From a virus (Duplodnaviria; Heunggongvirae; Uroviricota; Caudoviricetes): a stretch of 33,676 bases of DNA. Positions 476 to 29,237 of the stretch are shown one piece after another; within the stretch, counting starts at the first letter, position 1, and each line of letters begins with the position of its first letter. The notes beneath the pieces were generated by a model. The model was given only the letters and a program-made list of their open reading frames with translations, was not told where the DNA came from and searched no databases. Location: positions 1 to 33,676 of IMG/VR virus record IMGVR_UViG_2690315994_000029; one strand, given 5' to 3'. The position numbers and the translations under genes are program-made.

Positions 476-1873
476 ATGCCGCGCACTGTAACACATAATC
501 CGGATAGCCCCAATAATGACGATGTTTTAGCCGCATCTGAAAAATGGGACGCCTGTAAACCCCCCTATACCAGCGCACACATGAAAATCTGTGTTGCTGC
601 CGCCAAAATCATCCTCGCTGCTTCCGGCGTGGCTCGCCGTTCCAAATACGAAAAAGAGAACTATCTCCGTATCGATTTCAGCAAAGCCGGTAAGGTTACA
701 TTTTACGCCGAGTTTCCAAAAAAGATGGGCCTCAAGGGTAAAAAGCTCGGCGAGTGGCCGGAGCTCGCTATCCAGCTGGCGCGCGAAAAAGCGCTAGGTA
801 TGGCTGACTGTGGCTTGCGGGCAGAGTCAGTACATGCAGCGCTGGAAATGTACCGGGATGACCTCAAAGCCAAAGTCGCCCGGCAGAAGCTGAGCCCGGA
901 CAGTTTCACAACCTACGGGGTGCGTATCGACAGGATTAAAGCAACGTTCGGCGAGCGTGAGGTGTTCAGCGACGTAACATACAATCGGCTGGTGGAAGTG
1001 CTGGACGAGTGGATCGCCACTCGCTCGAACAATAACGCCCTGGAGTTGTTTGCCGAGCTCCGTCGGTTCTGGAAGTTCTGCGCACCTACTCTTTGCAACG
1101 GCCGCAATGTTGCCGCCAGTCTGCCAGATGATTATGTTTCCTCCCGCGTACAGAAACCTACCCCCACACGGCTTTTTACCGATATTGAATCAATCGCCCG
1201 ACTCTGGCTCAATGTTGCTGCCTGCACCTCTGTACACCAGAAGAATGCTGTTCGCTTCATGATCATCACTGGCGTTCGTCCGATTAATGTCCATAACCTG
1301 CGCTGGGACTACGTTCACGAGGAGGCTGGTGAAATTGTTTATCCGGAAGGGGTTATCGGCATGCGAGGGGCTATGAAAACACAAAAGGCTTTCCGCCTGC
1401 CGATAACGCCTGAGATCCGGCGGATTATCGACGAGCAGAAAGCCTGGCGTGATTCAGTTCCTGAGTGCAACAGGGATTATGTATTTTTGCAGCCACGTGA
1501 TCCAATGCAGTCATTTTCAAAACGATCACTGGATAAGCTGGTGAAAACATACAGCCCGGACGGGGCTGTAAAAGGAATAAAACATGATGGGACTGTTAAA
1601 GGGAAAGACGGTGCATTTAATACGATGTGCCGTAAATTCCTTAAGAGCAATGTTATTGCCTTGATGAAGGAAAGAGGCTATTCCCGATCAGACCGAAGGG
1701 AAATCAGCCTCCTTTGCCTTCACCACTCCAGCAAGTCAGATGACCCGATGGCAGAACATTACGACTTTTCTGATGAGATTTTACAGGAAGAGATTGCGTT
1801 AAAGCGCGAAGCTTTCGAGGCTCACGAGCGGAGCATACTTGCGCAGGTTGCATTGCTACGGCGGCGAGGTTAA
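476..1873 (+). CDS. int: phage tyrosine integrase (site-specific recombinase)
   Basis: ORF track 470-1873 begins at TTG; first ATG at 476 preceded by AAGGA (465-469). About 465 aa, at prophage edge next to host gene, divergent from an AlpA/Xis-like gene; C-terminal region has His/Arg/Tyr residues expected of the catalytic domain. Family not verified by search. Confidence 0.8.
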   Translation: MPRTVTHNPDSPNNDDVLAASEKWDACKPPYTSAHMKICVAAAKIILAASGVARRSKYEKENYLRIDFSKAGKVTFYAEFPKKMGLKGKKLGEWPELAIQLAREKALGMADCGLRAESVHAALEMYRDDLKAKVARQKLSPDSFTTYGVRIDRIKATFGEREVFSDVTYNRLVEVLDEWIATRSNNNALELFAELRRFWKFCAPTLCNGRNVAASLPDDYVSSRVQKPTPTRLFTDIESIARLWLNVAACTSVHQKNAVRFMIITGVRPINVHNLRWDYVHEEAGEIVYPEGVIGMRGAMKTQKAFRLPITPEIRRIIDEQKAWRDSVPECNRDYVFLQPRDPMQSFSKRSLDKLVKTYSPDGAVKGIKHDGTVKGKDGAFNTMCRKFLKSNVIALMKERGYSRSDRREISLLCLHHSSKSDDPMAEHYDFSDEILQEEIALKREAFEAHERSILAQVALLRRRG

Positions 1874-2070
1874 TACTGGCTGCGACACTTTTGAATAAAA
1901 GCGTCGACATTTCGGCGCTCATAACGAACTACTTTTGCACTGAAACGAATTGGTGCCAGGATAGCCCGATGACGATGCTTAATATTCCACTCACATAGCG
2001 TTTTCTGTGTAATACCTAACTTTTGGCATACTTCATCTGGGGTGAGTAAATCGTCGGGTTTCTCGCTCAT
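1870..2070 (-). CDS. AlpA/Xis-family helix-turn-helix protein (putative excisionase)
   Basis: 66 aa; LLTPDEVCQKLGITQKTLCEW resembles AlpA-type excisionase HTH; start ATG 2070-2068 overlaps helicase stop (ATGA); adjacent to int. Confidence 0.65.
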   Translation of the reverse strand: MSEKPDDLLTPDEVCQKLGITQKTLCEWNIKHRHRAILAPIRFSAKVVRYERRNVDAFIQKCRSQY

Positions 2071-3461
2071 GCTATACCTCTCTTTTTCATGGCATCGAGC
2101 AGGATGTCCTGCACTGTTCGTTTTGAGTTGCGCCGCTCCATCACCATTTCGTCCATAGTGTCGGCCGCAATAATGTGGTGAATAAATACCGGACGATTGT
2201 GTCCGGCCTGTATCTGCCTGGTGGGGCCGATACGTTCAATAATTTGCTGATACTGCTCCAGGTCCCACCAGTGTGAGAAAAATACCAGTATGTTTCCGCC
2301 GTCCTGCATGTTCAGACCGTGGCCCGCGCTGGCTGGGTGTGCAAAGAGAACAGGAATCTTTCCGGAATTCCAGTCGCGCAGTGTCTGTGGATCTTGGTCG
2401 AGGTGACGACCGCGAGGGAATGCTTTAAGCAAGCGTTCAAGATCGTGTTTCCAGTGATAAGCAACCAGCACAGGTGCGCCAGCTGCTTCGGTCAGTATGC
2501 TGTCCAGCGCCTGCAGTTTGGTGTCATGCAGTTCTGACCAACTTCCGGTGTCGTCTGTGTATACTGCGCCACTGGCGATTTGCAGACACTTCAGTGTCTT
2601 TGCCGCGGCGTTTGGTGCTTCGATGCCTTCGCCATTCAGCTCGAGGAACATTTCCTTTTCCATTTCACGATACTGCTGACGGGCCTTCGGCGGCATATCC
2701 ACGCGGATTACGTTATGGATGGGGTCTTTGATATCGAACCAGTCGGCCGCATCCAGCGATAGGGTCACATCGGCTAACGCTCGCTGTATTTCACCCTGTG
2801 AGTGAGCAAACGGCTCCAGTTTGGTCCAGCTCTGCCCCGGAAACTGCATCGAGTTGAACCAGCGTGAGGTAAACGCGCCGTAAGTGCGTCCGAGACGTTG
2901 CCCCAGGTCCACAAACCACGCTTGTCCCCACAAATCTACCAGGCCGTTCGGTGCTGGCGTACCGGTGAGATTTATCCAGCGCCGGACATACTTATGCGCC
3001 ACTTTGCCCAGCGCCGCCGCGCGCTTACCACCACCTCGCAGCCGGAAGGATTTTAGCCGGGTGCTTTCATCTGGAATGACAGTACCGAACGGCCATCGTT
3101 CTCCCAATTCCTCAACCAGCCAGACAAGGTTATCGTAGTTGATGGTGAACACGCTTGCGTTGCTGTTCGCCAGCGCTGCAGAGCGCGCTTTGGCGTTACC
3201 AACAATCGACTGCATCTCAATATTACGCAGATGCCCCCATTTAACAGCTTCATCAGGCCAGGTGCTTGCTGCAACGCGTAGCGGCGCGAGGACCAGCGCG
3301 GGGCGTGTTTCTGCTCCAGCCATGAAAAGATCTTCCAGCGTGGTGAGTGTCGCTACGGTTTTACCCATTCCCATACCTGCCCAGATGTTGCAGCGCATGA
3401 TGTCGATTTCGTGGTTGATAATGAGATCTTGGTAGGGGCGAGGGATAAAGTTTTGAGGCAT
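2067..3461 (-). CDS. superfamily-2 (SNF2/DEAD-like) DNA helicase
   Basis: 464 aa; Walker A GMGMGKT near N-terminus, DExx-like VIPDESTRLK, C-terminal helicase-like region; ATG at 3461-3459. Confidence 0.75.
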   Translation of the reverse strand: MPQNFIPRPYQDLIINHEIDIMRCNIWAGMGMGKTVATLTTLEDLFMAGAETRPALVLAPLRVAASTWPDEAVKWGHLRNIEMQSIVGNAKARSAALANSNASVFTINYDNLVWLVEELGERWPFGTVIPDESTRLKSFRLRGGGKRAAALGKVAHKYVRRWINLTGTPAPNGLVDLWGQAWFVDLGQRLGRTYGAFTSRWFNSMQFPGQSWTKLEPFAHSQGEIQRALADVTLSLDAADWFDIKDPIHNVIRVDMPPKARQQYREMEKEMFLELNGEGIEAPNAAAKTLKCLQIASGAVYTDDTGSWSELHDTKLQALDSILTEAAGAPVLVAYHWKHDLERLLKAFPRGRHLDQDPQTLRDWNSGKIPVLFAHPASAGHGLNMQDGGNILVFFSHWWDLEQYQQIIERIGPTRQIQAGHNRPVFIHHIIAADTMDEMVMERRNSKRTVQDILLDAMKKRGIA

Positions 3462-3571
3462 TATAATCTCGCAAATTTTTGCTAGTTAGAGGTCGCACCA
3501 GTTGGCCTGGCAATTTTTACTATTCACAGCGAAGGTAACCCACAGGGTTAAATGTAAGGATAAACAATAAA

Positions 3572-4501
3572 ATGAGTGAATTTGGTGGTCAGCAACCCGC
3601 ACCCCAACAAGTACTGGACTTAGGTGTTAGTACTGAGGGGGTTTTTAACGAAATAGAAATGGGGGTTCTTCAGAACGGGATCTCCTACCTTACGCAAAAT
3701 GGGCTGGCCAGGATTTGCGGGGTGCATCGCAGTAATATCGCGGATATTTCTCGAGAGTGGGAAGAGAGCTTCCGCCACGGAGTTTTCGCTCGAGGGCGTA
3801 TGGAGTTTATCAGCTCATATTTACAGCGTGAGCAATATAATGAGCCGACTCTTTATATCACAATCAACAAAGATGGGTCAGTCCATTATGCGTACCCAGA
3901 AGTAGTCTGTATGGCTATTCTGGAGTTCTACGCATTTGTATCTCAAAGTGCTGCAACTCCTACTGCGCTACAGTTTTTCCGCGAGCTATCCCGTGCGGGT
4001 ATGCGTGGTTACATCTATACAGCGCTTGGCTACATACCTGATGACCCTTGGCGTCATTACCACTCTCGTGTGTCAATCATGCATGGGGCAAACTCGGTTC
4101 CTGCTGGACACTTCATTGTATTCAATGAAATTGCCGGTTTAATGGTAGACCTCATCCATGCTGGATTAGCAGTAAACCAGTACACTGTACCGGATATCAG
4201 TGTGGGCCAGCACTGGGCTCGCTACTGGTCTTCTTCCAACTACGATGCGACGATTGGCCCAAGACAACGCTGCCAGCACTATTACCCTGAAGAATTCAAC
4301 CAATCCGCAAGTAATCCCCAAATGGTCTATGCATACCCTGATAATGCTTTAGCTGTATTCAGGCACTGGCTTCGTGCGGTTTATTTACCAACCAAATTCC
4401 CTAAATACCTTCTGAGTAAAGCAGGGCTATTGGCTGGCGGACAAACGGCGGCGTTGCAAATTATTGATAATTTTAATAATCGTGCATTACCTAACCCATA
4501 A
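3572..4501 (+). CDS. hypothetical protein with KilA-N/Bro-N-like N-terminal region; function unknown (candidate defence/exclusion gene)
   Basis: 309-aa ORF, ATG 3572 with TAAGGA 11 nt upstream; only plus-strand gene inside the minus-strand early operon; N-terminal segment NGISYLTQNGLARICGVHRSNIADISREW looks like a phage DNA-binding (KilA-N/Bro-N type) module; C-terminal part unrecognised. Confidence 0.7.
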   Translation: MSEFGGQQPAPQQVLDLGVSTEGVFNEIEMGVLQNGISYLTQNGLARICGVHRSNIADISREWEESFRHGVFARGRMEFISSYLQREQYNEPTLYITINKDGSVHYAYPEVVCMAILEFYAFVSQSAATPTALQFFRELSRAGMRGYIYTALGYIPDDPWRHYHSRVSIMHGANSVPAGHFIVFNEIAGLMVDLIHAGLAVNQYTVPDISVGQHWARYWSSSNYDATIGPRQRCQHYYPEEFNQSASNPQMVYAYPDNALAVFRHWLRAVYLPTKFPKYLLSKAGLLAGGQTAALQIIDNFNNRALPNP

Positions 4502-4503
4502 TA

Positions 4504-5517
4504 TCAACAGATGAGGTCGTATCCTGTGCATTCCATAAACGAGCGGATGAATGTTGCGGCAGCTGGTGCGACTATCGCGTTGCCGTAGGCGCGCAGTCGT
4601 CCCACTCTGGAGGTAATCCCATGAGCCAACGGGAATGTGCCGGATTCAACTGGCCGCCAGCGACCATCCCGGCAGAGGAGCCAGTCAGCATCATCCCAGC
4701 AGCTGTTAATCGTATTGGGCCGCCGAGGGTCGTTCCCCGTTTGGTATGATTGGCCGCTGCGCCCTCGCCACGAACTTGGTTGTTGTCGACCGTCGTCACT
4801 GTCGGCCATCCCGCTAATCTGGATAGCCCCGCTAAGGTTTCTAGACCGCGTTTTGTCTCCGGCTGTGGGTTTGTGTTGCAGGTTGGGGTGTACCACCCCG
4901 CCAGGTGAGCAAAATCCCGCAGGGAGCTGTGTAGCGTGTTGCCGGACGGTCGACGATCTCCAGACATCTTCCTCAATGCTATTGAGGCGCTTTCGCCACC
5001 GCTGTGGTCGCTCGCCGCTGGCGTCGGCCACCCAATACGCTCTATCTCGGATATGCGGGGCACCGACGCCCGCAGCCGGAAACGGGACAAGCCCAAAGGC
5101 GTAGTCCACTGCTTCCACGTCAGTTTGTACAAGATCGAACCAGGCATTGACTCCCGCAACCTGTTCGCCAAATACCAGCTCAGGGCGTCGCTCGCTGATG
5201 AGGTGGAATAGTGCTGGCCATAGGTGCCGCTCGTCATCAAACCCAGCGCCTTTACCAGCCGAGCTGAAAGGCTGGCACGGGCAACTTCCTGTCCAGACCG
5301 GTTTGTTATCCGGCCATCCGGCCAGACGCAGAGCATAAGACCAGACGCCGATCCCGGCGAAGAAATGGCACTGTGTGAATCCGCGCAAGTCGTCTGGTGC
5401 GACATCTTCGATACTCCTTTCATCAACTTCACCCGGGGCGATATGACCCGCAGCAATAAGGTTACGCAGCCATTGTGCTGCGTTAGGGTCTATTTCGTTG
5501 TAATAGGCTCCCCGCAC
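4504..5517 (-). CDS. DNA (cytosine-5)-methyltransferase
   Basis: Motifs in order: FFAGIGV (motif I), [11 protein letters not shown] (PCQ catalytic motif IV), FGEQV (ENV motif VI), AYGNAIVAP (motif X); apparent GTG start at 5517; no cognate nuclease recognisable. Confidence 0.9.
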
Positions 5518-5783
5518 AATATCCCCTCCAGATTTTTGCTATCCAGCACCACTACGGTAAAGCCCAGCGCGCGCAGTCGTCCGTGTTCACGCAGTTGGCC
5601 GGCGCGTGGTGGCTTGCCGGGTGCTTTACATTCAACGAAAACGATACGACCACCGGGTAGCAGAACAATGCGATCTGGTACAGAGCGGTGACCGGGAGAT
5701 ACAAACTTAAAGGCCACCCCGCCAGCTTTTTTCACTTCAGCGACGAGGTGCTTTTCGATAAGGCTTTCACGTTCATAGGCCAT
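5490..5783 (-). CDS. VRR-NUC domain nuclease
   Basis: IVFVECKAPGKPPRAGQLREHGRLRALGF matches VRR-NUC signature; start chosen at in-frame ATG 5783-5781 (track start 5810 would overlap the upstream gene by 38 bp). Confidence 0.7.
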   Translation of the reverse strand: MAYERESLIEKHLVAEVKKAGGVAFKFVSPGHRSVPDRIVLLPGGRIVFVECKAPGKPPRAGQLREHGRLRALGFTVVVLDSKNLEGILCGEPITTK

Positions 5784-6072
5784 CTGAATCCCACTCTTCA
5801 AAAAGCACATTCAATTCCAGTTTCTCTGCCAATGCGTTTTCTGCACGTGCGCCGGTAGAGTACTCCCACTCTTTGAGCATATAAATCGTATCGGCACAGC
5901 GAAGCATTGCGAGGCAGATGTCCATATACTGAGCCTGTGTCAAACCATCGGGTAAAGTTGCGGGGTTAAGCACAACATATCCCTTGTCCGTTAGCCTCTT
6001 TGCTGCGGAATGAAAGGCCGGGCGGTTAAATTGTTCGTAACCGCTCATAGGCCCGGCAACGTAAACGATCAT
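5773..6072 (-). CDS. DUF4406-like (nucleoside 2-deoxyribosyltransferase-like) protein
   Basis: 99 aa beginning MIVYVAGPMSGYEQFNRPAF, typical of this phage family by recollection; ATG 6072-6070. Confidence 0.55.
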   Translation of the reverse strand: MIVYVAGPMSGYEQFNRPAFHSAAKRLTDKGYVVLNPATLPDGLTQAQYMDICLAMLRCADTIYMLKEWEYSTGARAENALAEKLELNVLFEEWDSDGL

Positions 6073-6289: not shown

Positions 6290-8353
6290 TTAATCCTTAC
6301 GGTAGTGGTACGCCTCAAAACCGCCAGCGTTCAGTGGGATATCGGGCGCCCATTCGGGGTTAGTGGAGAGAAGCGCGGAAAGCGCTTTATCGTTGAAATC
6401 TTCTGTGTCAGGTGCTTCGGTGATCACCTCGTCGTGTACCGTCAGCACAATGCTGTAACCGGCATCTTCGATAAGCGGCATGTTTCCGGCCAGAACGTCG
6501 CGGGCGGCCGCCTGGGTGACGTTCTCTACCAGCTTTCCGCCGTAGGTTTTGAGTCGTTGCCATTTACGCGAATAAGAGTTAACACCCATATAGGTGATAT
6601 CCCCTTTTTCGATAACCGGAGACGGGTAGCATACAGCGCGTCCAGATGGCAGCTGTATGCGCAGCCACGCGCCATCACGTCGGATTTTAAGATAGCCGCA
6701 ATACAATGTTTTTTGCGGTGTGGCGATTGCTGTGCGGACGGTGCACTCCAGTTCGTACCAGAAATCACAGGTCGCGGGATGCGCCCGGCGCCAGAGACGT
6801 TTAAGTGAGTCGCAGGCGATAAATACCCGTTCAGAAAGCCCGTAGGTCGATTTACGTTTAACCGATTCGTCGTACCAGCTTTTCGCCTCGCGGATAACAT
6901 CGCGGGGAATGTTTGGCAGTGCGGCGTTCGCCAGCCCGTCGAGATCGAGACCGTAAACCAGAGCAAAAGTGATGAAAGCCGATACACCTCCTCCATAACC
7001 CAGACCGAGTTCCATGACTTTACCGATCTGACGCATGTGTTTATCAACATCATCTGGTGCAATATCGAAAGCTTTTGCATACGCCAGTTTATATAAGTCC
7101 GGACCCGTTCCGGCGTCGTACTCTCTGAATGCATTCAGTTTCCATTCTTCTCCCGCCAGCCATGCCAGCATACGGCCTTCAATGTTCGACAAGTCACTTA
7201 CCACCAGCTTTTTGCCTGTTGGCGCGATAATGCAGCCACGTAACGCTGAACTGGTTAGTTCCATGATATTGTCAAACAGCAGGTCTGCACATCCGGCTTT
7301 CAGTGCTTCGATGCCTTCGTCTATTTGTTCCTGTTTTAGTGAAGGGCGGGGAAGGTTCTGGGGCTGGAATAGCCGTCCGGCCCAACGACCGGTACGTGAC
7401 GCCCCGCAGAACTGTAGCGTACCGCGTAAGCGCCCGTCGTGGCTTACGCCTTTCATCAGTGCCTTGTATTTACTGGTGCTGGTAGTACTGGCCTGCAGGC
7501 GGATAGCCAGCAGTTCTTTCACGGCAGATGGTAAATCGGGGTCGGCAATACGACGTTCCAGAGTACTGCGTTGCATGTCTGGTAGCTCCACACCGTAGGA
7601 TTCAACAATGTGCTTAATCAACGCGTCTCGTTGTGTGGCTGCCTGCACTTCGCCATCAGTCATTTCCTGTGTACGCTTTGCCAGGCGCTTTTGTTCCTGG
7701 TCTACCGCGTCGATCGCAGCGCGTGCGAGTTCCACGTCCATGCAGACGCCCCGGTCATTGATCTGCTGATCACGATGCCAGAGCGCCAGTTCTGTCCCCT
7801 GATAATTCCACTTCGGCAGACGTTTATAGACTTCGCGCATTGCCTCGATATCCAGTCCGGCGTAAGCAACAAAGCGCCGCCATTCTTCCGGGTGGGTTTT
7901 GCTGGTGGCCCGGCGCAGTTTGCTGTTTTTCGGGCGTGGCTTACAGAACAGCTGGATCAGCGCTTTACCTTCTTTGTCCTTCGCTTTGTCTTGCGGGACG
8001 CCTAGTACTTCGCAGAGTTCCCCCAGAGCCCCCGGGAGACCGTGCGCCAGCGCCTGCACCATCGTGTCGCGCCAACGTTCGACTGGCGGTGCCAGTCGCG
8101 GCATTGCATAACGCAGGACGGTGCGGTCGAAGTGAGAGTTATGAAAATAAAGCAGGGTTTCAGGGGCTGCGATTGCTTCGTATAAGCCGTGTGGAATACC
8201 ACCACCGGCAGTGATATCCCATACGTTTACTGGCCCGTCGTTGATAGCCCATGCGAACAGCATCACTTCAACGCCTTCGGCATACGCATGGGTACCGTTC
8301 GTAATAGGGATTTCGCAATAGGTTTCCAGGTCGCCCCATAGTATATTGGACAT
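6290..8353 (-). CDS. family-A DNA polymerase (Pol I-like, phage replicative)
   Basis: 687 aa; Pol A motif A-like [14 protein letters not shown], motif B-like [16 protein letters not shown], motif C VHDE; N-terminal exonuclease-like region. Confidence 0.85.
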
Positions 8354-8399
8354 GTGTTTACCTTGGTTTTTATTCTATTAACTGATTAAAAGATTAATT

Positions 8400-9029
8400 A
8401 TGCATATGATCCAATACTTGATTGACCATACAGAGCATCTGGAGAAAATAGCTGGATATATTTTTTCATGTTTGATTGTTATGGGAGTCTGGATAAGAAA
8501 GATCATTTTTAATTATAAGTATAAAGAGCCTAAATATGTCAAGAAGTTAATTTTATATTTAGTTAAGTATGAACGTTATCTGGATAAGGAGGATAAGAGT
8601 GCCATAGAAAAAAGAATAAATGATAAAATTATTCGTGATGCGCTGAAATTGCAATCTTCTTATAACCGAAGTGATGTTATTTACATTTGCAATAGATTAG
8701 AAAAAAGACAGTATATAAATCAGGTGATTAAGCTTCAGAATTATATAGAGAAAGATAACGGAGTGTTTTTCATCAATGTTAATTTTTCAGGTTTTTTATT
8801 TATTATTAGTCGTCTGTTTTCCTTTCTGTGTTTTGTGCTGTTTATCCTTTTTTCTATTATCTGCATTATTTCCATAGGGCAAAATGAAGGCCTTTTAAAT
8901 TATCTTGTGTATATGGTTATGACAATAGTTTTAGAGACTGTTGGTTTTTGGATGTATGATACTTTCCCGTCTAAGAAGAAGATCTGTGAACTAAATAAAG
9001 AATTGAGGAAGATTAAGATTCCTGAGTGA
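8400..9029 (+). CDS. hypothetical multi-pass membrane protein, AT-rich moron
   Basis: 209-aa ORF with GC visibly far below flanks (roughly 30 percent vs about 50 percent, by eye); hydrophobic segments IAGYIFSCLIVMGVWI, FSGFLFIISRLFSFLCFVLFILFSIICIISI, LLNYLVYMVMTIVLETVGFWMY; opposite strand to flanking replication genes. Confidence 0.7.
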   Translation: MHMIQYLIDHTEHLEKIAGYIFSCLIVMGVWIRKIIFNYKYKEPKYVKKLILYLVKYERYLDKEDKSAIEKRINDKIIRDALKLQSSYNRSDVIYICNRLEKRQYINQVIKLQNYIEKDNGVFFINVNFSGFLFIISRLFSFLCFVLFILFSIICIISIGQNEGLLNYLVYMVMTIVLETVGFWMYDTFPSKKKICELNKELRKIKIPE

Positions 9030-9047
9030 TTATACGCCTAATCAGCA

Positions 9048-9066
9048 GCCCGGTATTTAACCGGGC
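9048..9066. other. 7-bp GC-rich hairpin between convergent genes
   Basis: GCCCGGT-attta-ACCGGGC inverted repeat; no U-tract on either side, so terminator function uncertain. Confidence 0.4.
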
Positions 9067-9081
9067 GTCTATGAAGTAGGG

Positions 9082-9630
9082 TTAAATCAGTGCTTCAGCA
9101 TCAGCACCTTCGCTGATATCGTCGAAATCGTCAGCGCTTGCCACTCCGCCGCCAGCGAATGCATCGCCGTCTCGCAGGAACTGGACTCCGCCGAGTGAGG
9201 CATTAATGCGTTTACCGAAATTATTGTCCTGTGCCCAGATATCGATAACGGCGTTTACATAGCACCCTGCATAGGGACGTCCATCAGCCTGAATAAGTGG
9301 CGAACGATCGCGATCAAGAACAGCTGGGCGCGCTTTGTTAGCAGCATTCAGGAAGAAATTGCCGGGGAAGCCTTCATACTCTGCTTTTTCATCACCATCA
9401 TGCAGGCACAGATTGAGTTTTTTCTCCAGTTGGTTATAAATGGGCTCCCACTTCTCTCCCCATTTTTCCTTCGCTACCTGCTTCATAGCTTTACGGATTT
9501 CTTCCAGTTGTGGGTGTTTGGGTGACATTAAAAATACTGCGGAGAAACGTGGATCGCCTTCGCCGTTTACAGTTTTAGCTTCAAACAGAGACGGGAAGGC
9601 CAGACGAACATTGTTCAGCTTCAGTTTCAT
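9082..9630 (-). CDS. DUF2815-family phage protein (putative ssDNA-binding)
   Basis: 182 aa beginning MKLKLNNVRLAFPSLFEAK; AAGGA RBS; acidic C-terminal tail. Confidence 0.7.
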   Translation of the reverse strand: MKLKLNNVRLAFPSLFEAKTVNGEGDPRFSAVFLMSPKHPQLEEIRKAMKQVAKEKWGEKWEPIYNQLEKKLNLCLHDGDEKAEYEGFPGNFFLNAANKARPAVLDRDRSPLIQADGRPYAGCYVNAVIDIWAQDNNFGKRINASLGGVQFLRDGDAFAGGGVASADDFDDISEGADAEALI

Positions 9631-12222: not shown

Positions 12223-12747
12223 ATGTCTGAAGAAAAAGGACTTGTACGGCGTATAACTGAGGCGGCCACTAGTGCTGGTGGTGCTTTGAAAGGTGCTGTT
12301 GATTTAGCAAAAGAAGTTAATGCGTTGCAGGTGGATTACAATGTTAAAAGTAAAACTATCGATCTACTTGATAAACTAATTGATGCGCGTACTGGACAAT
12401 TCGCACTAACGGAGCTTTTGAACGAAGCTAAACAGCGCATTGTTGAACTCGAATCCCTTCTGGAAAAGAAACAGGATTGGGATAGTGAGAAAATGAACTA
12501 TGAAATGTACCACCCGATTACCAATACGGTGGTCTATGTACTGAAGCCTACTGACGATCCTGAGTTCAAGCCTCATTATCTTTGTACTACATGCTATGAG
12601 TCGGGTATGAAGTCTATACTTCAATACCATACTTCTAATGCCGCTTATAAAATTCTCAAGTGTCATAAATGCTCCGCTGAATATAAATTTCCCCGAAATA
12701 TAGAAGTCAGTGGCAAAACTCCTGCACCGTTACAACCTGCCAGATGA
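12223..12747 (+). CDS. hypothetical coiled-coil / zinc-ribbon protein in the immunity region
   Basis: 174 aa; charged helical N-terminal half; C-terminal CTTC ... CHKC pair; GC lower than backbone by eye; convergent with cI. Confidence 0.65.
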   Translation: MSEEKGLVRRITEAATSAGGALKGAVDLAKEVNALQVDYNVKSKTIDLLDKLIDARTGQFALTELLNEAKQRIVELESLLEKKQDWDSEKMNYEMYHPITNTVVYVLKPTDDPEFKPHYLCTTCYESGMKSILQYHTSNAAYKILKCHKCSAEYKFPRNIEVSGKTPAPLQPAR

Positions 12748-19867: not shown

Positions 19868-20544
19868 ATGCCGTTACCATTCCCCTTCGATTTTAAACAT
19901 CCTGATTACCAGATGGTTTTTGAATGGCGGATGGAACGCCTACAGCGCATTCGCCAGAATCCTGAAATATTGCCCGTATTGAAGCAGTTTTACCGAACCA
20001 ATCCGGCTCAGTTCATCATCGACTGGGGCATGACAACGGACCCGCGTAATATTGATTATGGCCTGCCGGTGAACATTCCGTTTTTACTCTTCCCTAAGCA
20101 GGAGGAGTGGATCCACTGGATTATGGAACGCTGGGGCAATCGGGAGAATGGTATTACCGAAAAATCCCGTGAAATGGGGCTCAGTTGGACCGCGATCGGA
20201 CTGGCCTGCTCGCTTTGTCTCTTCAACAAAGAAATGGTTATCGGTTTCGGCTCCCGTAAAGAGGAATACGTCGACAGCACTGGTGACCCGAAAGCATTGT
20301 TCTGGAAGGCACGCAAGTTCGTGGAAACGCTACCTGTAGAGTTTCGCGGTTCGTGGAGTGAGAAGAAGCACGCGCCATATATGCGTGTTGAGTTTCCTGA
20401 AACTGGTGCCGTTATCAAAGGCGAGGCTGGCGATAATATTGGTCGTGGTGACCGTACCACGCTTTATCTGGTTGATGAGGCTGCATTCCTTCAGCGTCCT
20501 CTGCTGATTGATGCGGCGTTGTCACAAACGACGCGTTGCCGTAT
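19868..20544 (+). CDS. terminase large subunit, 3'-truncated at contig join
   Basis: N-terminal 225 aa including Walker-A-like EKSREMGLS and Walker [10 protein letters not shown]; reading frame is cut by 'n' at 20545. Confidence 0.7.
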
Positions 20545-20545
20545 N

Positions 20546-21724
20546 TGACTCACAATGGGCGGCAATTTGTTCCATTGCCCCAAAGATTGGCTGTACGCCA
20601 GAGACTCTGCGTGTGTGGGTTCGTCAGCATGAGCGGGATACCGGGAGTGGTGATGGTGGATTCACCACCGCTGAACGTCAGCGTCTGAAAGAGCTGGAAC
20701 GTGAAAATCGTGAACTGCGCCGCAGTAACGATATCCTTCGCCAGGCTTCCGCTTATTTTGCGAAGGCGGAGTTCGACCGCCTCTGGAAAAAATAATGCCA
20801 CTGCTGGATAAGCTGCGTGAGCAGTACGGGGTCGGACCGGTATGCAGTGAACTGCATATTGCCCCGTCAACGTATTACCACTGTCAGCAACAGCGACATC
20901 ATCCTGATAAACGCAGTGCCCGTGCGCAGCGCGATGACTGGCTGAAGAGAGAGATACAGCGCGTATACGATGAAAATCATCAGGTGTACGGTGTGCGTAA
21001 AGTCTGGCGCCAGTTGTTACGCGAAGGTATCAGGGTGGCCAGATGTACAGTGGCGCGCCTCATGGCGGTTATGGGACTTGCCGGTGTTCTCCGGGGTAAA
21101 AAGGTCCGTACTACCGTCAGCCGGAAAGCCGTTTCCGCAGGCGACCGCGTAAACCGTCAGTTCGTGGCAGAACGTCCTGACCAGCTGTGGGTGGCTGATT
21201 TTACTTACGTCAGCACATGGCAGGGCTTCGTCTATGTGGCGTTCATCATTGATGTGTTTGCCGGATGCATCGTGGGGTGGCGAGTCTCATCGTCTATGGA
21301 AACGACATTCGTGCTGGATGCACTGGAGCAGGCGTTGTGGGCCCGTCGGCCGTCCGGCACAGTCCATCACAGTGATAAAGGTTCTCAGTATGTATCACTG
21401 GCCTATACGGAGCGACTAAAAGAAGCAAAACTGCTGGCATCAACAGGGAGTACAGGTGACTCGTATGACAACGCGATGGCGGAGAGCATCAATGGTCTTT
21501 ACAAAGCGGAGGTAATACACCGTAAGAGCTGGAAAAACCGTGCAGAAGTGGAACTGGCCACACTCACGTGGGTGGACTGGTATAACAATCGACGATTGCT
21601 GGGAAGGCTGGGTCATATCCCTCCGGCAGAAGCAGAAAAAGCTTATTATGCTTCCATCAGAAACGATGATCTGGCAGCCTGAGTTCACAGATAAAACACT
21701 CTCCAGGAAAACCGGGGCGGTTCA
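20546..21724 (+). mobile_element. IS3-family insertion sequence (IS629/IS1203-like by recollection), 5'-truncated at contig join
   Basis: Partial orfA (20547-20795), TAATG overlap into orfB, right terminal repeat ending CCGGGGCGGTTCA at 21724; left end and first ~28 codons of orfA missing. Confidence 0.75.
20795..21682 (+). CDS. IS3-family transposase OrfB (DDE integrase domain)
   Basis: 295 aa with DDE-type catalytic region (WVADFTYV ... HHSDKGSQY ... DNAMAES); normally made as an OrfAB frameshift fusion. Confidence 0.8.
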   Translation: MPLLDKLREQYGVGPVCSELHIAPSTYYHCQQQRHHPDKRSARAQRDDWLKREIQRVYDENHQVYGVRKVWRQLLREGIRVARCTVARLMAVMGLAGVLRGKKVRTTVSRKAVSAGDRVNRQFVAERPDQLWVADFTYVSTWQGFVYVAFIIDVFAGCIVGWRVSSSMETTFVLDALEQALWARRPSGTVHHSDKGSQYVSLAYTERLKEAKLLASTGSTGDSYDNAMAESINGLYKAEVIHRKSWKNRAEVELATLTWVDWYNNRRLLGRLGHIPPAEAEKAYYASIRNDDLAA

Positions 21725-22656: not shown

Positions 22657-22744
22657 CTCAATCTGTTATCCGGGGCTATATTCCTCACGCGCCAGCAAAA
22701 TCTGGCGTCGGGATTAGGAACCCCGGATAGAGACCGCGACAGAC

Positions 22745-22766
22745 ACACGCCGCGAGCGTGTTTTTT
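22745..22766 (+). terminator. putative rho-independent terminator (tR'-like) after the Q-like gene
   Basis: ACACGC-cgcga-GCGTGT followed by TTTTTTATT; preceded by hairpin CGCCAG-caaaat-CTGGCG at 22690-22707. Confidence 0.55.
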
Positions 22767-22929
22767 ATTGTCGTATGCACGCGCACATCTGAATTATGGT
22801 GGGGCGTATGGGGGAGCTGAAAAGCTCGCCGGTTGGTTTCCCGGTAGTTCCTAACCCTGTACGTCTCACCACCCGATGATTAGGAACCTGACGGTGGTGA
22901 TGGTTTAGAAACCACCAGAGGGCGTCATT

Positions 22930-24006: not shown

Positions 24007-24342
24007 ATGCCTCATAACCCAAATACCTGGCCGGACTGGCTGGAGTTGTTTCAGAGCTGGTGGCGTGGAGACACACCGCTGGGTGCAGTGATTATGTCGA
24101 TCGTTATGGCTGGTTTGCGCATCGCCTATTTTGGCGGTGGTGGGGGCTGGAAACGAAAAACGCTTGAGATTTTGCTCTGTGGTGCCCTGACGCTGACCTT
24201 TGCATCCGCGCTTGAGTATGTCGGATGGCCTAAATCACTTTCTGTTGCCATTGGTGGTGGGGTGGGGCTGATTGGTGTTGATGCTATTCGTGGTGCGGCA
24301 ATGAGGGTCATCGGTAACAAGTTCGGTGCCCATAAGGAGTAA
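24007..24342 (+). CDS. holin (second copy, divergent N-terminus)
   Basis: Identical to the 17902 holin from WWRGDTPLGAV onward except for the last residues; different N-terminus; start ATG 24007. Confidence 0.65.
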   Translation: MPHNPNTWPDWLELFQSWWRGDTPLGAVIMSIVMAGLRIAYFGGGGGWKRKTLEILLCGALTLTFASALEYVGWPKSLSVAIGGGVGLIGVDAIRGAAMRVIGNKFGAHKE

Positions 24343-24345
24343 TTA

Positions 24346-24822
24346 ATGCAGACACTTAATTCCCAGCGTAAAGCTTTCCTTGATATGGTGGCATGGTCAG
24401 AAGGAACGGATAACGGGCGACAACCGACACGTAACCACGGTTATGATGTTATTGTTGGTGGCGAACTGTTCACTGATTACTCCGATCACCCTCGCAAACT
24501 TGTCACACTAAATCCGACACTCAAATCAACAGCCGCCGGACGTTACCAGCTTCTTTCACGCTGGTGGGATGCCTACCGCAAGCAACTTGGTCTGAAAGAT
24601 TTTTCTCCAGAAAGCCAGGATGCTGTAGCGCTGCAGCAGATTAAAGAGCGTGGCGCTTTACCGATGATTGACCGCGGCGATATTCGTCAGGCAATCGACC
24701 GGTGCAGCAATATCTGGGCGTCGTTACCTGGTGCAGGTTACGGTCAGTATGAACATAGAATCGGTGACCTGATTTCCCGATTTAAAGAAGCTGGTGGGGT
24801 GGTAAATGAAGCTGAGATATAA
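24346..24822 (+). CDS. R: endolysin, lambda R-like lytic transglycosylase (second copy)
   Basis: 158 aa, about 95 percent identical to the 18247 copy by eye. Confidence 0.9.
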   Translation: MQTLNSQRKAFLDMVAWSEGTDNGRQPTRNHGYDVIVGGELFTDYSDHPRKLVTLNPTLKSTAAGRYQLLSRWWDAYRKQLGLKDFSPESQDAVALQQIKERGALPMIDRGDIRQAIDRCSNIWASLPGAGYGQYEHRIGDLISRFKEAGGVVNEAEI

Positions 24823-25198
24823 GCTGGTTATTGTTGCCTTCTTTGTTACCGTCATCGGTTCTTTTATCTGGTCTGCCGGGCATTACTACAGCAAATATCA
24901 ACACGAAAAGGAGCGTGCTGATGAGGCTGTACGAAATGCTGAATCTGCAACAGCCATTACCAGTAACGTCCTGCAATCACTGCAAATCATCAATACAGTT
25001 ATAGAGGCTAACCAGCATGCAAAACAGCAGATCGCACTGGAGTCACAGAGAACCCAGGAAGATATCAAAGTGGCTGTTGCGGATGATGATTGTGCTGTTC
25101 GTATCGTTCCTTCTGGCGCAGTTAAGCGGTTGCACGAATACGCGAACGGTATACGTGTCGGTGCCGGTCGTTCCGTTACCAGCCAGTCTGACGGATGA
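24806..25198 (+). CDS. Rz: Rz-like i-spanin (second, divergent copy)
   Basis: 130 aa; N-terminal TM helix plus coiled coil; overlaps the R stop. Confidence 0.7.
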   Translation: MKLRYKLVIVAFFVTVIGSFIWSAGHYYSKYQHEKERADEAVRNAESATAITSNVLQSLQIINTVIEANQHAKQQIALESQRTQEDIKVAVADDDCAVRIVPSGAVKRLHEYANGIRVGAGRSVTSQSDG

Positions 25199-25664: not shown

Positions 25665-26120
25665 CTATCCGTGGAAAATATTTGCATCCAAATCATCTAT
25701 GAGATTAGACCTAACTGATTCATAATTTTTCCCATATGCGGCCCCTTTACCTGAATGGGTTACATGCCCAATAGGACCGTACAGAAGTATAGAGATTGTG
25801 AATGATATTTCATCAGAAATGCCGCCTATCTTTTGAAACCAAAGTTCCGGGTTACGATTCCGGTCGGTTACAACGTCAAATACAAGCGCGATAAGATCTG
25901 GGAGATAGTACATGTTAAATCCGCCTTTTGGGGTCAACTCGAGATTCAACAGGGCTTTGATGGAGGGATAATTGCTTACATCATCCTGAATGCCATTCTT
26001 AAGAGTTGTAAACACAAAGTTCAGCATTTCAGCAACTTTATCTTTGTTTGGTTCTACTCCATTTCTGAAGGACCGCTCTCCAGATTCATATTTTTCAACA
26101 CAAAAATCTAATAAATTCAT
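25665..26120 (-). CDS. hypothetical soluble protein, low-GC moron between lysis and terminase genes
   Basis: About 151 aa (ATG 26120 with GGGGA RBS; track start 26126); opposite strand to the late operon; GC visibly lower than flanks; no motif recognised. Confidence 0.6.
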   Translation of the reverse strand: MNLLDFCVEKYESGERSFRNGVEPNKDKVAEMLNFVFTTLKNGIQDDVSNYPSIKALLNLELTPKGGFNMYYLPDLIALVFDVVTDRNRNPELWFQKIGGISDEISFTISILLYGPIGHVTHSGKGAAYGKNYESVRSNLIDDLDANIFHG

Positions 26121-26142
26121 TATCATTCCCCGAGGTAACTAA

Positions 26143-26694
26143 ATGGCGCTCACCGACAAACAAGAGATGTTCTGTCGCGAGTACCTCATCGATTTAAACG
26201 CCACGCAAGCGGCTATTCGGGCGGGGTACAGCGCTAAGACAGCTAACCGTACCGCATCCGAAAACCTGTCAAAACCTGACATCAAGTTAAGAATCGCCGA
26301 ACTGAAAGCGCAACGCAATGATCTTGTTGGTATTAATGCAGAATATGTACTTAATCGCCTTATTGAAATCGACCAGATGGATGTGCTTGACATTCTCCTG
26401 CAAAACGGTGAGCTAAAACCCATTAAAGACTGGCCTAAGGTATGGCGCACAACGCTATCAGGAATGGATGTCGTGGAGATGGTATCCGCAGATAGCGCCG
26501 CACTTCTGAAGAAAATCAAATGGCCTGATAAGGTTAAAAACCTTGAGTTGCTTGGGCGCCATGTTTCTGTTCAGGCGTTTAAAGACAACGTCAAAAATGA
26601 AGTGACTGGTGCTGACGGAGGACCAGTCAGAACAGAAATTACCAACTTAACGCCGGAGCAGGCTGCAGAAGCGTATAAAAAAATGATGGGCTAA
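26143..26694 (+). CDS. terminase small subunit (second allele, mosaic)
   Basis: 183 aa; N-terminal two thirds diverged from the 19293 copy, C-terminal ~60 aa near-identical. Confidence 0.7.
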
Positions 26695-26696
26695 GT

Positions 26697-27562
26697 ATGC
26701 CGTTACCATTTCACTTCGATTTTAAACATCCTGATTACCAGATGGTTTTTGAATGGCGGATGGAACGCTTACAGCGCATTCGCCAGAACCCTGAAATATT
26801 GCCTGCACTAAAACAGTTTTACCGAACCAATCCGGCTCAGTTCATCATCGACTGGGGCATGACAACGGACCCGCGTAATATTGATTATGGCCTGCCGGTG
26901 ACCATTCCGTTTTTACTCTTCCCTAAGCAGGAGGAGTGGATCCACTGGATTATGGAACGCTGGAGCAATCGGGAGAATGGTATTACCGAAAAATCCCGTG
27001 AAATGGGGCTCAGTTGGACCGCGATCGGACTGGCCTGCTCGCTTTGTCTCTTCAACAAAGAAATGGTTATCGGTTTCGGCTCCCGTAAAGAGGAATACGT
27101 CGACAGCACTGGTGACCCGAAAGCATTGTTCTGGAAGGCACGCAAGTTCGTGGAAACGCTACCTGTAGAGTTTCGCGGTTCGTGGAGTGAGAAGAAGCAC
27201 GCGCCATATATGCGTGTTGAGTTTCCTGAAACTGGTGCCGTTATCAAAGGCGAGGCTGGCGATAATATTGGTCGTGGTGACCGTACCACGCTTTATCTGG
27301 TTGATGAGGCTGCATTCCTTCAGCGTCCTCTGCTGATTGATGCGGCGTTGTCACAAACGACGCGTTGCCGTATTGACCTGAGTTCAGTTAACGGCATGGC
27401 GAACCCGTTCGCTCAGAAGCGTCATGGCGGGAAGATACCGGTATTCACATTCCACTGGCGGGATGATCCTCGCAAGGATGAAGAGTGGTATCGCAGGGAA
27501 TGCGAGAAAATCGATAATCCGGTGGTGGTGGCACAGGAACTAGATCTGAACTACAGCGCATC
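26697..27562 (+). CDS. terminase large subunit, 3'-truncated at contig join
   Basis: Same N-terminal sequence as 19868 with a few substitutions; cut by 'n' at 27563. Confidence 0.7.
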
Positions 27563-27563
27563 N

Positions 27564-29018: not shown

Positions 29019-29237
29019 AGCGGAAGGCGTTCTGATTCCATCCGAATGGGTACAGGCTGCCGTTGATGCGCATATCAAACTGGGTATCCAGCCAACAGGC
29101 AAACGACTTGGCGCGATGGATGTCGCCGACGAAGGCAGGGACAAAAATGCCTTTTCCACCCGTCATGGCTTCCTCCTGGAAAATGTGCGGGAATGGTCCG
29201 GTGTGGGCAGCGACATTTATCAGTCCGTCGAGAAGGT
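28153..29237 (+). CDS. terminase large subunit, partial (to 'n' at 29238)
   Basis: 361 codons through Walker motifs and into the nuclease-like domain ([16 protein letters not shown]); the 738-aa track ORF is an artefact fusion across the 'n'. Confidence 0.7.

What the first reader, a model, noticed from the sequence alone, without database searches (positions are those of the whole stretch)
8354..9081. AT-rich single-gene island encoding a multi-pass membrane protein inside the replication operon
The 209-aa ORF at 8400-9029 has strikingly low GC (A/T-rich codons throughout, Lys/Ile/Asn/Tyr-rich protein) against a roughly 50 percent GC backbone. It is on the opposite strand to the flanking DNA polymerase and DUF2815 genes and is bounded by short AT-rich spacers and a GC hairpin (9048-9066). 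That is the signature of a horizontally acquired moron. Predicted topology is one N-terminal and about three C-terminal helices around a charged loop. Single membrane proteins in this position are often superinfection-exclusion or abortive-infection effectors, but I recognise no family.
Basis: seen in the sequence. Interest (0 to 1): 0.7.

Follow-up and report, generated by a model that had tools for sequence, protein, structure and literature searches.

The report
Prophage cargo-slot membrane protein, function unproven
A very AT-rich gene sitting backwards inside an E. coli prophage's replication operon is a swappable cargo cassette that encodes a three-pass inner-membrane protein from a rare, uncharacterised family; it most likely protects the lysogen from other phages, but nobody has tested this.

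Summary
ORF 8400-9029 (+) has 29.5% GC against a 50% backbone, the lowest 630-nt stretch in the window. It lies antisense between a family-A DNA polymerase gene and a DUF2815/Enc34-type SSB gene.

It is a real gene. About 35 relatives at 17-43% identity in Enterobacterales keep the same architecture: TM1, a ~90-aa cytoplasmic helical domain, a TM2-TM3 hairpin, and a conserved cytoplasmic tail with invariant N199 and L202. That makes three TM helices, not four.

It is cargo, not core. Of 159 E. coli genomes with this prophage backbone, 67 carry this allele and 13 carry an allele about 20% identical, in the same slot and orientation. Others carry a SIR2 protein (PADLOC candidate PDC-S25), a BRO-N protein, or Nmad5 plus other genes. 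Relatives occupy other accessory slots, including P2's S-V (orf30) slot, and solitary chromosomal islets. No partner gene is conserved.

Pfam, NCBIfam, PADLOC, PDB sequences and fold searches gave nothing specific. It is not homologous to P22 SieA or SieB, though it shares SieA's topology class and sieB's gene arrangement.

Best reading, inferred only: a single-gene, membrane-acting phage-exclusion or abortive-infection protein.

The parts
6290..8353 (-). Left backbone flank: family-A DNA polymerase gene. Its start codon (8351-8353) is the left edge of the variable slot.
   Evidence: PF00476 at 4.9e-14. Homology with other prophage variants ends at 8341-8360.
8347..8376 (+). Candidate sigma-70 promoter for the ORF: -35 TGGACA (overlaps the polA ATG), 18-nt spacer, -10 TATTCT. 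It would give a ~15-nt AU-rich leader with no Shine-Dalgarno sequence.
   Evidence: Consensus scan, 9 of 12 matches. The number of such sites in the region is not above the shuffled expectation, so this is weak evidence.
8354..9047 (+). Cassette-specific DNA (the swappable cargo): left spacer, ORF and 18 nt of 3' spacer.
   Evidence: Backbone/cassette junctions mapped against five variants. GC.
8400..9029 (+). ORF of 209 aa (= WP_000551021.1 in ETEC H10407): a three-TM inner-membrane protein of a rare family and a member of phrog_10579. Start at 8400 or 8406. The N-terminal 27 aa are conserved in relatives, so the M28 start implied by the PHROG profile is too short.
8448..8510 (+). TM1 (aa ~17-37). 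The preceding N-tail is net -2 and predicted periplasmic.
   Evidence: Kyte-Doolittle hydropathy and charge counts. AF2 helix 11-36.
8511..8783 (+). Predicted cytoplasmic domain (aa 38-128): four helices (44-56, 63-82, 90-99, 103-111) and a beta hairpin (116-125). It has 20 K+R against 12 D+E. Conserved residues: L54, Y57, Y60, R90, L112, I125.
   Evidence: AF2 run with the family alignment, pLDDT 79. Conservation. Charge counts.
8784..8963 (+). TM2 (aa ~129-160), a 4-5-aa periplasmic loop (GQNEG), then TM3 (aa ~165-188, with E178 inside the helix).
8964..9014 (+). Conserved cytoplasmic C-terminal helix or tail (aa 189-205): P190, I195, N199 (invariant), E201, L202 (invariant), K204. This is the most conserved part of the family.
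   Evidence: region mean 0.57, against 0.35-0.38 for the TM segments.
9048..9066 (.). GC hairpin GCCCGG-TATTTAA-CCGGGC between the convergent 3' ends. It is a backbone element shared with the BRO-N and SIR2 variants and has no U-tract. Role unknown; it could be a weak or bidirectional pause site or an RNA-stability stem.
9082..9630 (-). Right backbone flank: DUF2815 / Enc34-type ssDNA-binding protein gene. Its stop codon is the right edge of the slot.
   Evidence: PF10991 at 7.6e-44. Junction.

Best explanation
The island is a single-gene cargo cassette in a recombination hotspot, the polA/SSB junction, of a temperate E. coli myovirus-type prophage integrated next to yfhL.

It encodes a ~23-kDa inner-membrane protein. 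The predicted topology is N-out/C-in: TM1, a ~90-aa cytoplasmic helical domain, a TM2-TM3 hairpin with almost no periplasmic exposure, and a conserved basic cytoplasmic tail.

Proposed function (inferred, not shown): it is made in the lysogen from its own promoter and acts alone at the inner membrane to exclude other phages. The version I favour is that the cytoplasmic domain and tail sense an infection cue or hold the TM hairpin closed. On triggering, the protein oligomerises into a holin-like lesion that collapses the membrane potential and aborts the infection. The alternative version is SieA-like: it interferes with the incoming phage's DNA-delivery conduit in the inner membrane.

The gene's antisense placement inside the early lytic operon would let convergent transcription switch it off when its own prophage is induced. 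This step is also inferred.

Shown here: real gene, membrane architecture, cargo status, hotspot, solitary occurrence on mobile elements, absence of known homologues. Inferred: expression pattern, anti-phage role, pore or blocking mechanism.
For: Cargo and hotspot:
- Backbone identity breaks at 8353 and at 9048 or 9082.
- Alternative cargos in the same slot are SIR2 (PADLOC candidate PDC-S25, 4e-157), BRO-N, Nmad5 plus an 89-aa two-TM protein, and Nmad5 plus a 229-aa protein plus IS1.
- A 199-aa protein with the same architecture, about 20% identical, sits in the same orientation and is also AT-rich.
- Allele counts are 67 and 13 of 159 backbone-bearing genomes.

Real gene and family:
- HMMER over 1.84 billion representatives finds only 10 relatives; profile searches find about 30 more.
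- All are 198-218 aa (one 261 aa) and collinear.
- pN/pS is 0.38 between the two E. coli alleles.

Contexts of relatives:
- P2-like prophage between gpS and gpV, which is P2's nonessential orf30 slot.
- Lambdoid prophage just upstream of Q, beside GAPS4-type PDDEXK, Dcm+HNH and HD genes.
- Antisense between RecT and a PAPS-reductase gene on a phage-like contig.
- A CP4-57-like island, a contig with a TraG_N gene nearby, and a Xenorhabdus variable region with HicA and Tad2-like genes.
- Solitary chromosomal islets.
- No conserved neighbour anywhere.

Architecture:
- AF2 model with pLDDT 79 and three TM helices.
- Positive-inside charge pattern.
- Cytoplasmic tail and domain more conserved than the TM segments and loops.

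Precedents:
- The same prophage carries BstA (PADLOC 2.2e-110), a validated prophage abortive-infection protein, also counter-oriented in the early operon at 3572-4501 (PMC8585504).
- P22 sieB is counter-oriented in the PL operon with its own promoter.
- P22 SieA is a three-TM inner-membrane protein with three sequence types under 30% identical and a conserved cytoplasmic C-terminal motif (PMC10883804).
Against: - There is no functional evidence of any kind, and no paper mentions the protein.
- No PADLOC model matches. The only trace is one relative (P0010) hitting candidate PDC-S47 at E = 4e-4.
- The hotspot also holds non-defence cargo (BRO-N, Nmad5), so guilt by association is only moderate.
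- Several relatives sit in plain chromosomal islets with no phage or defence neighbours.
- The promoter call is no better than chance, and there is no canonical terminator.
- Structure searches return only generic helical bundles.
- Nothing here discriminates abortive infection from an injection block.
Confidence: 0.45

Rival explanations
1. SieA-like superinfection exclusion. The protein sits in the inner membrane and blocks assembly or function of an incoming phage's DNA-delivery channel. Infected cells therefore survive, without cell suicide. This is a sub-variant of the anti-phage reading and is listed separately because it predicts different phenotypes.
For: - Same topology class as P22 SieA: TM1, charged cytoplasmic loop, TM2-TM3, conserved basic cytoplasmic tail (PMC10883804).
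- Like SieA, the family splits into three sequence types under 30% identical with conserved TM predictions.
- It sits in prophage accessory slots.
Against: - No homology to SieA: hhalign probability 0.3%, hmmsearch negative.
- Periplasmic exposure is minimal, and the conserved residues are on the cytoplasmic side.
- The family also occurs outside prophages in varied hosts, which fits a generic function better than exclusion of one phage lineage.
Confidence: 0.2
2. A membrane protein with a function unrelated to phages that benefits the host or the element. Examples are a lysogenic-conversion or stress-tolerance factor, an entry-exclusion protein against conjugation, or a membrane toxin or addiction module kept silent by H-NS.
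For: - Solitary chromosomal copies lie next to metabolic or fimbrial genes.
- One copy lies near a TraG_N gene.
- One relative gives a weak TraS hit at E = 0.1.
- Low GC (0.28-0.34) in every host is typical of H-NS-silenced foreign genes.
- No defence model matches.
Against: - P0004 is divergent from, not downstream of, the TraG_N operon, so it is not in the traS/eex position.
- There is no antitoxin-like partner and no room for one: the spacers are 46 and 52 nt.
- It recurs in prophage accessory slots next to defence genes.
Confidence: 0.2
3. A phage-beneficial lytic-cycle accessory, such as a membrane anchor for the replication complex or a lysis-timing (holin or antiholin-like) factor.
For: - It lies between replication genes.
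- It has the three-TM, N-out/C-in topology with a basic C-tail seen in class I holins.
- There are sub-threshold holin hits: phrog_2508 at 0.066, and Phage_holin_3_6 for 4 members at E >= 0.25.
Against: - It is antisense to the replication operon.
- It is absent from, or replaced in, more than half of otherwise 97-99% identical prophages.
- The prophage has its own lambda-family holin/endolysin cassette elsewhere.
- Relatives occur outside phages.
Confidence: 0.07
4. Not a functional gene: a chance ORF in an AT-rich spacer, or a decaying remnant.
For: - No Shine-Dalgarno sequence.
- No Pfam domain.
- pN/pS of 0.38 rests on only 13 substitutions.
Against: - Collinear homologues at 17-43% identity exist in four or more genera, with conserved length, TM pattern and invariant residues.
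- A relative has a clear Shine-Dalgarno sequence.
- The ORF is intact in 67 genomes and 3 induced phages.
Confidence: 0.03

Closest known systems
P22 SieA (superinfection exclusion, inner-membrane protein; PMC10883804)
   Same: A single prophage-encoded gene in an accessory position. Predicted three-TM inner-membrane protein ordered TM1, charged cytoplasmic loop, TM2-TM3 hairpin, short basic cytoplasmic tail carrying the best-conserved motif. The family splits into three types under 30% identical that keep the same TM pattern.
   Different: No detectable sequence homology (hhalign probability 0.3%, hmmsearch and blastp negative). The cytoplasmic loop is about 90 aa with predicted helices and a hairpin, against about 45 aa in SieA. 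The tail motif differs: P-x4-I-x3-N-x-E-L-x-K against FxRYPxEAxxFNK. It lies in a replication operon, not the immI region. It is also found outside P22-like phages and outside phages altogether. Function untested.
P22 / lambda SieB (abortive exclusion; counter-oriented gene in the PL operon)
   Same: Gene arrangement. A small membrane-protein gene sits antisense inside an early lytic operon; in P22 it has an annotated promoter of its own. It would be expressed in the lysogen, with an abortive-infection-type outcome proposed.
   Different: Not homologous (hhalign probability 0.1%). SieB has its hydrophobic segment(s) only near the N-terminus, followed by a C-terminal soluble domain. No Esc-like internal start is conserved in this family (M28 is not conserved).
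BstA (prophage abortive-infection protein; PMC8585504)
   Same: Encoded in this very prophage at 3572-4501, also as a counter-oriented single gene within the early operon. This shows that the element carries defence cargo in this configuration.
   Different: BstA is a soluble KilA-N-like DNA-associated protein, unrelated in sequence and architecture.
P2 hotspot cargo: Orf30 (S-V slot) and old/tin/fun-type morons (PMC9122126)
   Same: A 38%-identical relative occupies exactly the P2 S-V slot, where P2 carries the nonessential orf30. The concept is the same: a fixed phage slot holding interchangeable accessory or defence genes.
   Different: P2 Orf30 itself is unrelated (hhalign probability 0.9%). 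The polA/DUF2815 slot of this prophage lineage did not come up in the literature searches run here.
Class I holins (lambda S type)
   Same: Three TM helices, N-out/C-in, basic cytoplasmic C-tail. The lesion-forming mechanism is proposed by analogy.
   Different: About 100 aa longer, with a soluble domain inserted between TM1 and TM2. Not in the lysis cassette. Only sub-threshold holin profile hits.

Membership tests
PHROG phrog_10579 (unknown function) | Significant match to the profile over its full length | tested here: met
   E = 2e-109; profile positions 1-182 of 182 match aa 28-209. The family has no assigned function.
Moron / phage cargo cassette | Present in some, and absent from or replaced in other, closely related phage genomes at a fixed position | tested here: met
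   67 of 159 backbone-bearing E. coli genomes carry it. Five other cassettes were seen in the same slot, with junctions at 8353 and at 9048 or 9082.
Moron / phage cargo cassette | Nucleotide composition distinct from the surrounding genome | tested here: met
   GC 0.295 against 0.50, about 4.6 sd low and the window minimum. The same holds for relatives in hosts with flank GC of 0.42-0.56.
Moron / phage cargo cassette | Autonomous transcription unit with its own promoter and terminator | tested here: inconclusive
   A 9-of-12 sigma-70-like site lies at 8347-8376, but such sites are not above the shuffled expectation. No U-tract terminator was found, and the hairpin belongs to the backbone.
P22 SieA family | Sequence homology, including the cytoplasmic FxRYPxEAxxFNK motif | tested here: not met
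   hhalign probability 0.27%; hmmsearch score below 0; best blastp E = 0.04 over 61 aa of TM region.
P22 SieA family | Three-TM inner-membrane topology | tested here: met
   By prediction only: hydropathy, charge bias and the AF2 model.
P22 SieA family | Blocks DNA injection by superinfecting phage | not testable with these tools
   Needs infection, K+ efflux and DNA-entry assays.
SieB (PF14163) | Match to the Pfam model, or homology to P22 SieB | tested here: not met
   No Pfam hit. hhalign probability 0.1%.
Known or candidate defence systems in PADLOC-DB v2.0.0 | A match to any model | tested here: not met
   No hit at E <= 1 for the window protein. Across 25 family members, only P0010 hit PDC-S47 (E = 4e-4, aa 18-94), and there were three chance-level hits.
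SLATT / two-TM pore effectors | Match to Pfam SLATT families or to the PADLOC SLATT model | tested here: not met
   No Pfam hit. One member hits RTasSLATT at E = 0.085.
Holins | Match to a holin family above threshold, and location in a lysis cassette | tested here: not met
   phrog_2508 at E = 0.066; Phage_holin_3_6 at E >= 0.25. The prophage's holin/endolysin cassette lies about 9 kb away.
CorA-type channels | C-terminal two-TM hairpin with a GMN loop motif, and a specific fold match | tested here: not met
TraS/Eex conjugative entry exclusion | Pfam TraS match, and position immediately downstream of traG | tested here: not met
   One member hits TraS at E = 0.1. P0004 is divergent from, not downstream of, the TraG_N gene.

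The most novel reading that the evidence does not exclude
The ORF founds a previously unrecognised family of single-protein, membrane-embedded anti-phage sensor-effectors. It would be a holin-like three-TM module gated by a cytoplasmic (possibly winged-helix-like) domain and a conserved C-terminal latch. The family circulates as a self-contained cassette among the accessory slots of unrelated temperate phages: the polA/SSB slot described here, the P2 S-V slot, and the lambdoid region upstream of Q. Its antisense placement in the early operon would provide self-immunity through convergent transcription on induction. The polA/SSB junction would then be a new defence hotspot for discovering further systems; it already holds SIR2/PDC-S25, with TIR/PDC-S35 on the other side of polA.
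Probability: 0.2. Interest if true: 0.7.

Novelty: new variant of a known kind. Interest (0 to 1): 0.5.

Why it matters
If the protein is an exclusion or abortive-infection factor, three things follow.
- It adds a compact (630-bp), partner-free membrane defence module to the repertoire. It is carried by clinically relevant E. coli lineages (ETEC H10407, O103:H2, O45:H2), where it could limit phage therapy or shape prophage competition.
- The comparative result stands on its own. The polA/DUF2815 junction of this prophage lineage is a cargo hotspot with at least six interchangeable cassettes, including a SIR2 candidate. It can be mined in the way the P2/P4 hotspots have been.
- The family is rare (about 35 clusters among billions of proteins) and matches no known structure, so its mechanism would be new information about how a very small membrane protein can sense or block infection.

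If it has no phage phenotype, it is one more uncharacterised moron.

Tried and rejected
- **Family searches.** Pfam, NCBIfam and PADLOC scans of the ORF and of all 25 aligned relatives gave nothing above threshold.
- **Solved structures by sequence.** A profile search of PDB sequences gave nothing below E = 1.
- **Structure prediction.** The single-sequence AF2 model was poor (pLDDT 56). The model built with the alignment was usable (pLDDT 79).
- **Winged-helix impression.** The order helix-helix-helix-hairpin looks winged-helix-like, but no search confirmed it, so I make no such claim.
- **Specific candidates.** Homology to P22 SieA, P22 SieB and P2 Orf30 was tested and rejected. I could not build a SieA profile because every SieA in the phage collection is at least 98.8% identical.
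- **Thoeris idea.** I considered that SIR2 and TIR flanking polA form a split Thoeris system. TIR also occurs with the membrane ORF and with Nmad5 cargo, so the two look like independent cargos.
- **Partner genes.** A toxin-antitoxin pair or a small partner ORF or RNA inside the cassette is unlikely. The spacers are 46 and 52 nt, no ORF of 50 aa or more lies on the other strand, and Rfam finds nothing there.
- **Other collections.** There was no match in plasmids. The IMG/VR scan found only 97-100% identical copies, and the alignment was too divergent for a pattern scan.
- **Literature.** Searches by accession, PHROG id and phage names found nothing.

Full report
**1. The observation**

ORF 8400-9029 (+) encodes 209 aa.
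- Its GC is 0.295 (GC3 0.33), against a window mean of 0.500 (sd 0.045 for 630-nt windows). It is the single lowest stretch in 33.7 kb.
- It lies antisense between a family-A DNA polymerase gene (6290-8353, PF00476) and a DUF2815/Enc34-type SSB gene (9082-9630, PF10991). A DUF2800 PD-(D/E)XK nuclease gene follows.
- The left spacer is AT-rich (GC 0.22). The right spacer is not (GC 0.50). It contains the GC hairpin at 9048-9066, which folds well (dG -19.4 kcal/mol, z -3.4) but has no U-tract on either strand.

**2. Where the window comes from**

- The region is 100% identical to chromosomal prophages of many E. coli strains, including ETEC H10407, O103:H2 12009 and O45:H2.
- It is 98% identical to three sequenced phages, vB_EcoM-606R2, -689R2 and -611R5.
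- In H10407 the prophage is integrated next to yfhL. It reads: integrase, SNF2 helicase, a counter-oriented gene, Dcm, VRR-NUC, DUF4406, ANR, polA, the ORF (WP_000551021.1, 'hypothetical protein'), DUF2815, DUF2800, repressor/Cro, VapE primase, Q, lysis genes, then structural genes.

**3. It is cargo in a hotspot**

- Of 5,426 complete E. coli genomes, 159 carry the flanking backbone and 67 carry this ORF.
- Backbone identity (97-99%) ends at the polA start codon (8353). It resumes at 9082, the DUF2815 stop, or at 9048 in variants that share the hairpin.
- The same slot holds other cargo in other strains:
  - a BRO-N protein;
  - Nmad5 plus an 89-aa two-TM protein;
  - a 229-aa protein plus Nmad5 plus IS1;
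  - a 493-aa SIR2 protein that matches the PADLOC defence candidate PDC-S25 at 4e-157;
  - a 199-aa protein (WP_096845875.1).
- The 199-aa protein is on the same strand and is also AT-rich (GC 0.33). It has the same TM1, charged domain, TM2-TM3, basic tail layout, and aligns collinearly at 18-23% identity. That allele is in 13 genomes. Half of these prophages therefore carry one of two very divergent alleles of one family in this slot.
- A second slot, between the ANR regulator gene and polA, holds a TIR protein (PDC-S35, 1e-108) in some variants. These include phage 689R2, which also carries the membrane ORF.

**4. It is a real gene of a rare family**

- A word-indexed search of 5.8 billion clusters found only its own cluster and two fragment clusters of 75-83% identity.
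- Full HMMER over 1.84 billion representatives found ten relatives, at 43% down to 25% identity.
- Profile searches added Xenorhabdus (212 aa) and Enterobacter/Klebsiella/Pluralibacter (199 aa) subfamilies.
- The 25-sequence alignment is collinear. N199 and L202 are invariant. R90, I125, I195 and K204 are nearly so.
- The N-terminal 27 residues are conserved, and a Rahnella relative has a clear Shine-Dalgarno sequence before the equivalent start. The long reading frame (start at 8400 or 8406) is therefore correct, not M28.
- Between the window allele and the phage allele there are 5 synonymous and 8 nonsynonymous changes. That gives pN/pS 0.38, against 0.08 for polA and 0 for DUF2815. This indicates purifying but relaxed selection, from small numbers.

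**5. Architecture**

- Hydropathy gives TM1 at about 17-37, one long hydrophobic helix at about 129-160, and TM3 at about 165-188.
- AF2 with the family alignment gave pLDDT 79 and pTM 0.57. It predicts helices 11-36, 44-56, 63-82, 90-99 and 103-111, a beta hairpin at 116-125, then helices 132-160, 165-188 and 192-202.
- Charge bias indicates N-out/C-in, with the 90-aa domain in the cytoplasm: N-tail -2, after TM1 +4, TM2-TM3 loop -1, C-tail +3.
- The C-tail is the most conserved region (0.57), then the cytoplasmic helices (0.47). The TM helices and the periplasmic loop are least conserved (0.35-0.38).
- So there are three TM helices, not four, and the functional surface faces the cytoplasm.

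**6. Genomic contexts of relatives**

- P0005 (38% identity) lies between gpS and gpV of a P2-like prophage, exactly where P2 carries the nonessential orf30.
- P0007 lies directly upstream of the Q antiterminator in a lambdoid prophage, beside GAPS4-type PDDEXK, Dcm+HNH and HD genes.
- P0008 is counter-oriented between RecT and a PAPS-reductase gene on a phage-like contig.
- P0024 is at the edge of a CP4-57-like island with CbtA/CbeA, antirestriction and RadC genes.
- P0004 is near a TraG_N operon.
- P0010 is in a Xenorhabdus variable region with HicA and Tad2-like genes.
- Other Xenorhabdus, Pluralibacter and related copies are solitary islets next to housekeeping or fimbrial genes.
- No neighbour is conserved, so the protein works alone.
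- Gene GC is 0.28-0.34 in all but one context, whatever the flank GC (0.42-0.56).

**7. Comparison with what is known**

- No Pfam, NCBIfam or PADLOC family matches. The only named membership is phrog_10579, of unknown function.
- P22 SieA is the closest analogue in architecture. It is a three-TM inner-membrane protein with three sequence types under 30% identical and a conserved cytoplasmic C-terminal motif (PMC10883804). It is not homologous.
- P22 sieB is the closest analogue in gene arrangement. It is counter-oriented inside the PL operon and has its own promoter. It is not homologous either.
- P2 Orf30 is unrelated.
- Within the same prophage, 3572-4501 (+) is a full-length BstA (PADLOC 2.2e-110). 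BstA is a validated prophage abortive-infection protein (PMC8585504) and is also counter-oriented in the early operon.

**8. Interpretation**

Shown:
- a real, solitary, horizontally exchanged cargo gene;
- encoding a three-TM protein with a cytoplasmic domain;
- sitting in a hotspot that elsewhere carries defence candidates;
- on an element that carries another defence gene in the same configuration.

Inferred:
- It is expressed in the lysogen and excludes other phages at the inner membrane.
- I favour a sensor-plus-lesion (abortive-infection, holin-like) mechanism, for two reasons: conservation is concentrated on the cytoplasmic face, and the family is not tied to one phage lineage.
- A SieA-like injection block is the main alternative.
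- A role unrelated to phages cannot be excluded.

No literature mentions the protein.

**9. Verdict**

The function is a well-motivated but untested hypothesis. The finding is of moderate interest: it offers a candidate new single-gene membrane defence or exclusion family, and a prophage cargo hotspot that did not turn up in the literature searches run here.

Noticed in passing
window 3572-4501 (+): A 309-aa ORF, counter-oriented between the SNF2 helicase and Dcm genes, is a full-length BstA homologue (PADLOC BstA at 2.2e-110, profile positions 4-289 of 292). BstA is a validated prophage abortive-infection protein with a cognate aba self-immunity DNA element (PMC8585504). It is annotated only as 'hypothetical protein' in H10407.
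   Followed up: partly
window 20508-21700 (Rfam ALIL at 20750-20866): Collinearity with the H10407 prophage ends at 20544, inside the large-terminase gene (19868-20548, truncated). An IS3-type element follows, with two overlapping ORFs and an ALIL frameshift pseudoknot (120.9 bits). This copy of the prophage is therefore probably defective.
   Followed up: partly
window 22676-22876 (+): Rfam finds isrK (69 bits), C4 antisense RNA (67 bits) and the c4-a1b1 target (48 bits). This is a P1/P7-type antisense immunity (antirepressor control) module, sitting in DNA that is not part of the H10407-type prophage.
   Followed up: no
window 26100-33676: Four to five tandem, partial, 95-100% identical copies of the large-terminase region lie here (start-to-start spacing 1456, 594, 986 and 1479 nt), plus a second lysis cassette at ~24023-24823 (91% identical to the first). 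No complete E. coli genome holds this arrangement collinearly; the best matches cover 85-89% in 7-9 pieces over about 8 kb. It could be a real amplification, an IS-mediated rearrangement or an assembly artefact. Unresolved.
   Followed up: partly
L005 (E. coli Rb-50, NZ_AP025682) 1464-5923; L027 (phage vB_EcoM-689R2) 3105-3866: In some variants polA is flanked by a TIR protein (PADLOC candidate PDC-S35, 1e-108) on one side and a SIR2 protein (PDC-S25, 4e-157, with a weaker ThsA-like hit at 5e-18) on the other. TIR also occurs without SIR2, so they look like independent cargos in two adjacent hotspots, not a split Thoeris system. This was not tested further.
   Followed up: partly
L003 2011-2280 (+) (E. 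coli 85.0412): In the Nmad5 variant of the slot, an 89-aa protein with two hydrophobic segments is encoded counter-oriented right next to the polA start, in the same position and orientation as the ORF studied here. It has no family hits. Small counter-oriented membrane proteins recur at this junction.
   Followed up: no
window 12223-12747 (+): Another counter-oriented gene with moderately low GC (~0.42) lies between the early-left operon and the repressor. It encodes 174 aa with a coiled-coil N-terminus and a Cys-rich C-terminus, and belongs to phrog_1244 (unknown function, 1.8e-43). It is possibly further cargo.
   Followed up: no
window 2067-3461 (-): The SNF2-type helicase ORF is intact here (464 aa). 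The corresponding gene in ETEC H10407 is annotated as a pseudogene with an internal stop. It gives weak PADLOC similarity to DpdE, ZorD and DrmD helicase domains (E of 1e-12 to 1e-8), as expected for a generic SNF2 fold.
   Followed up: no
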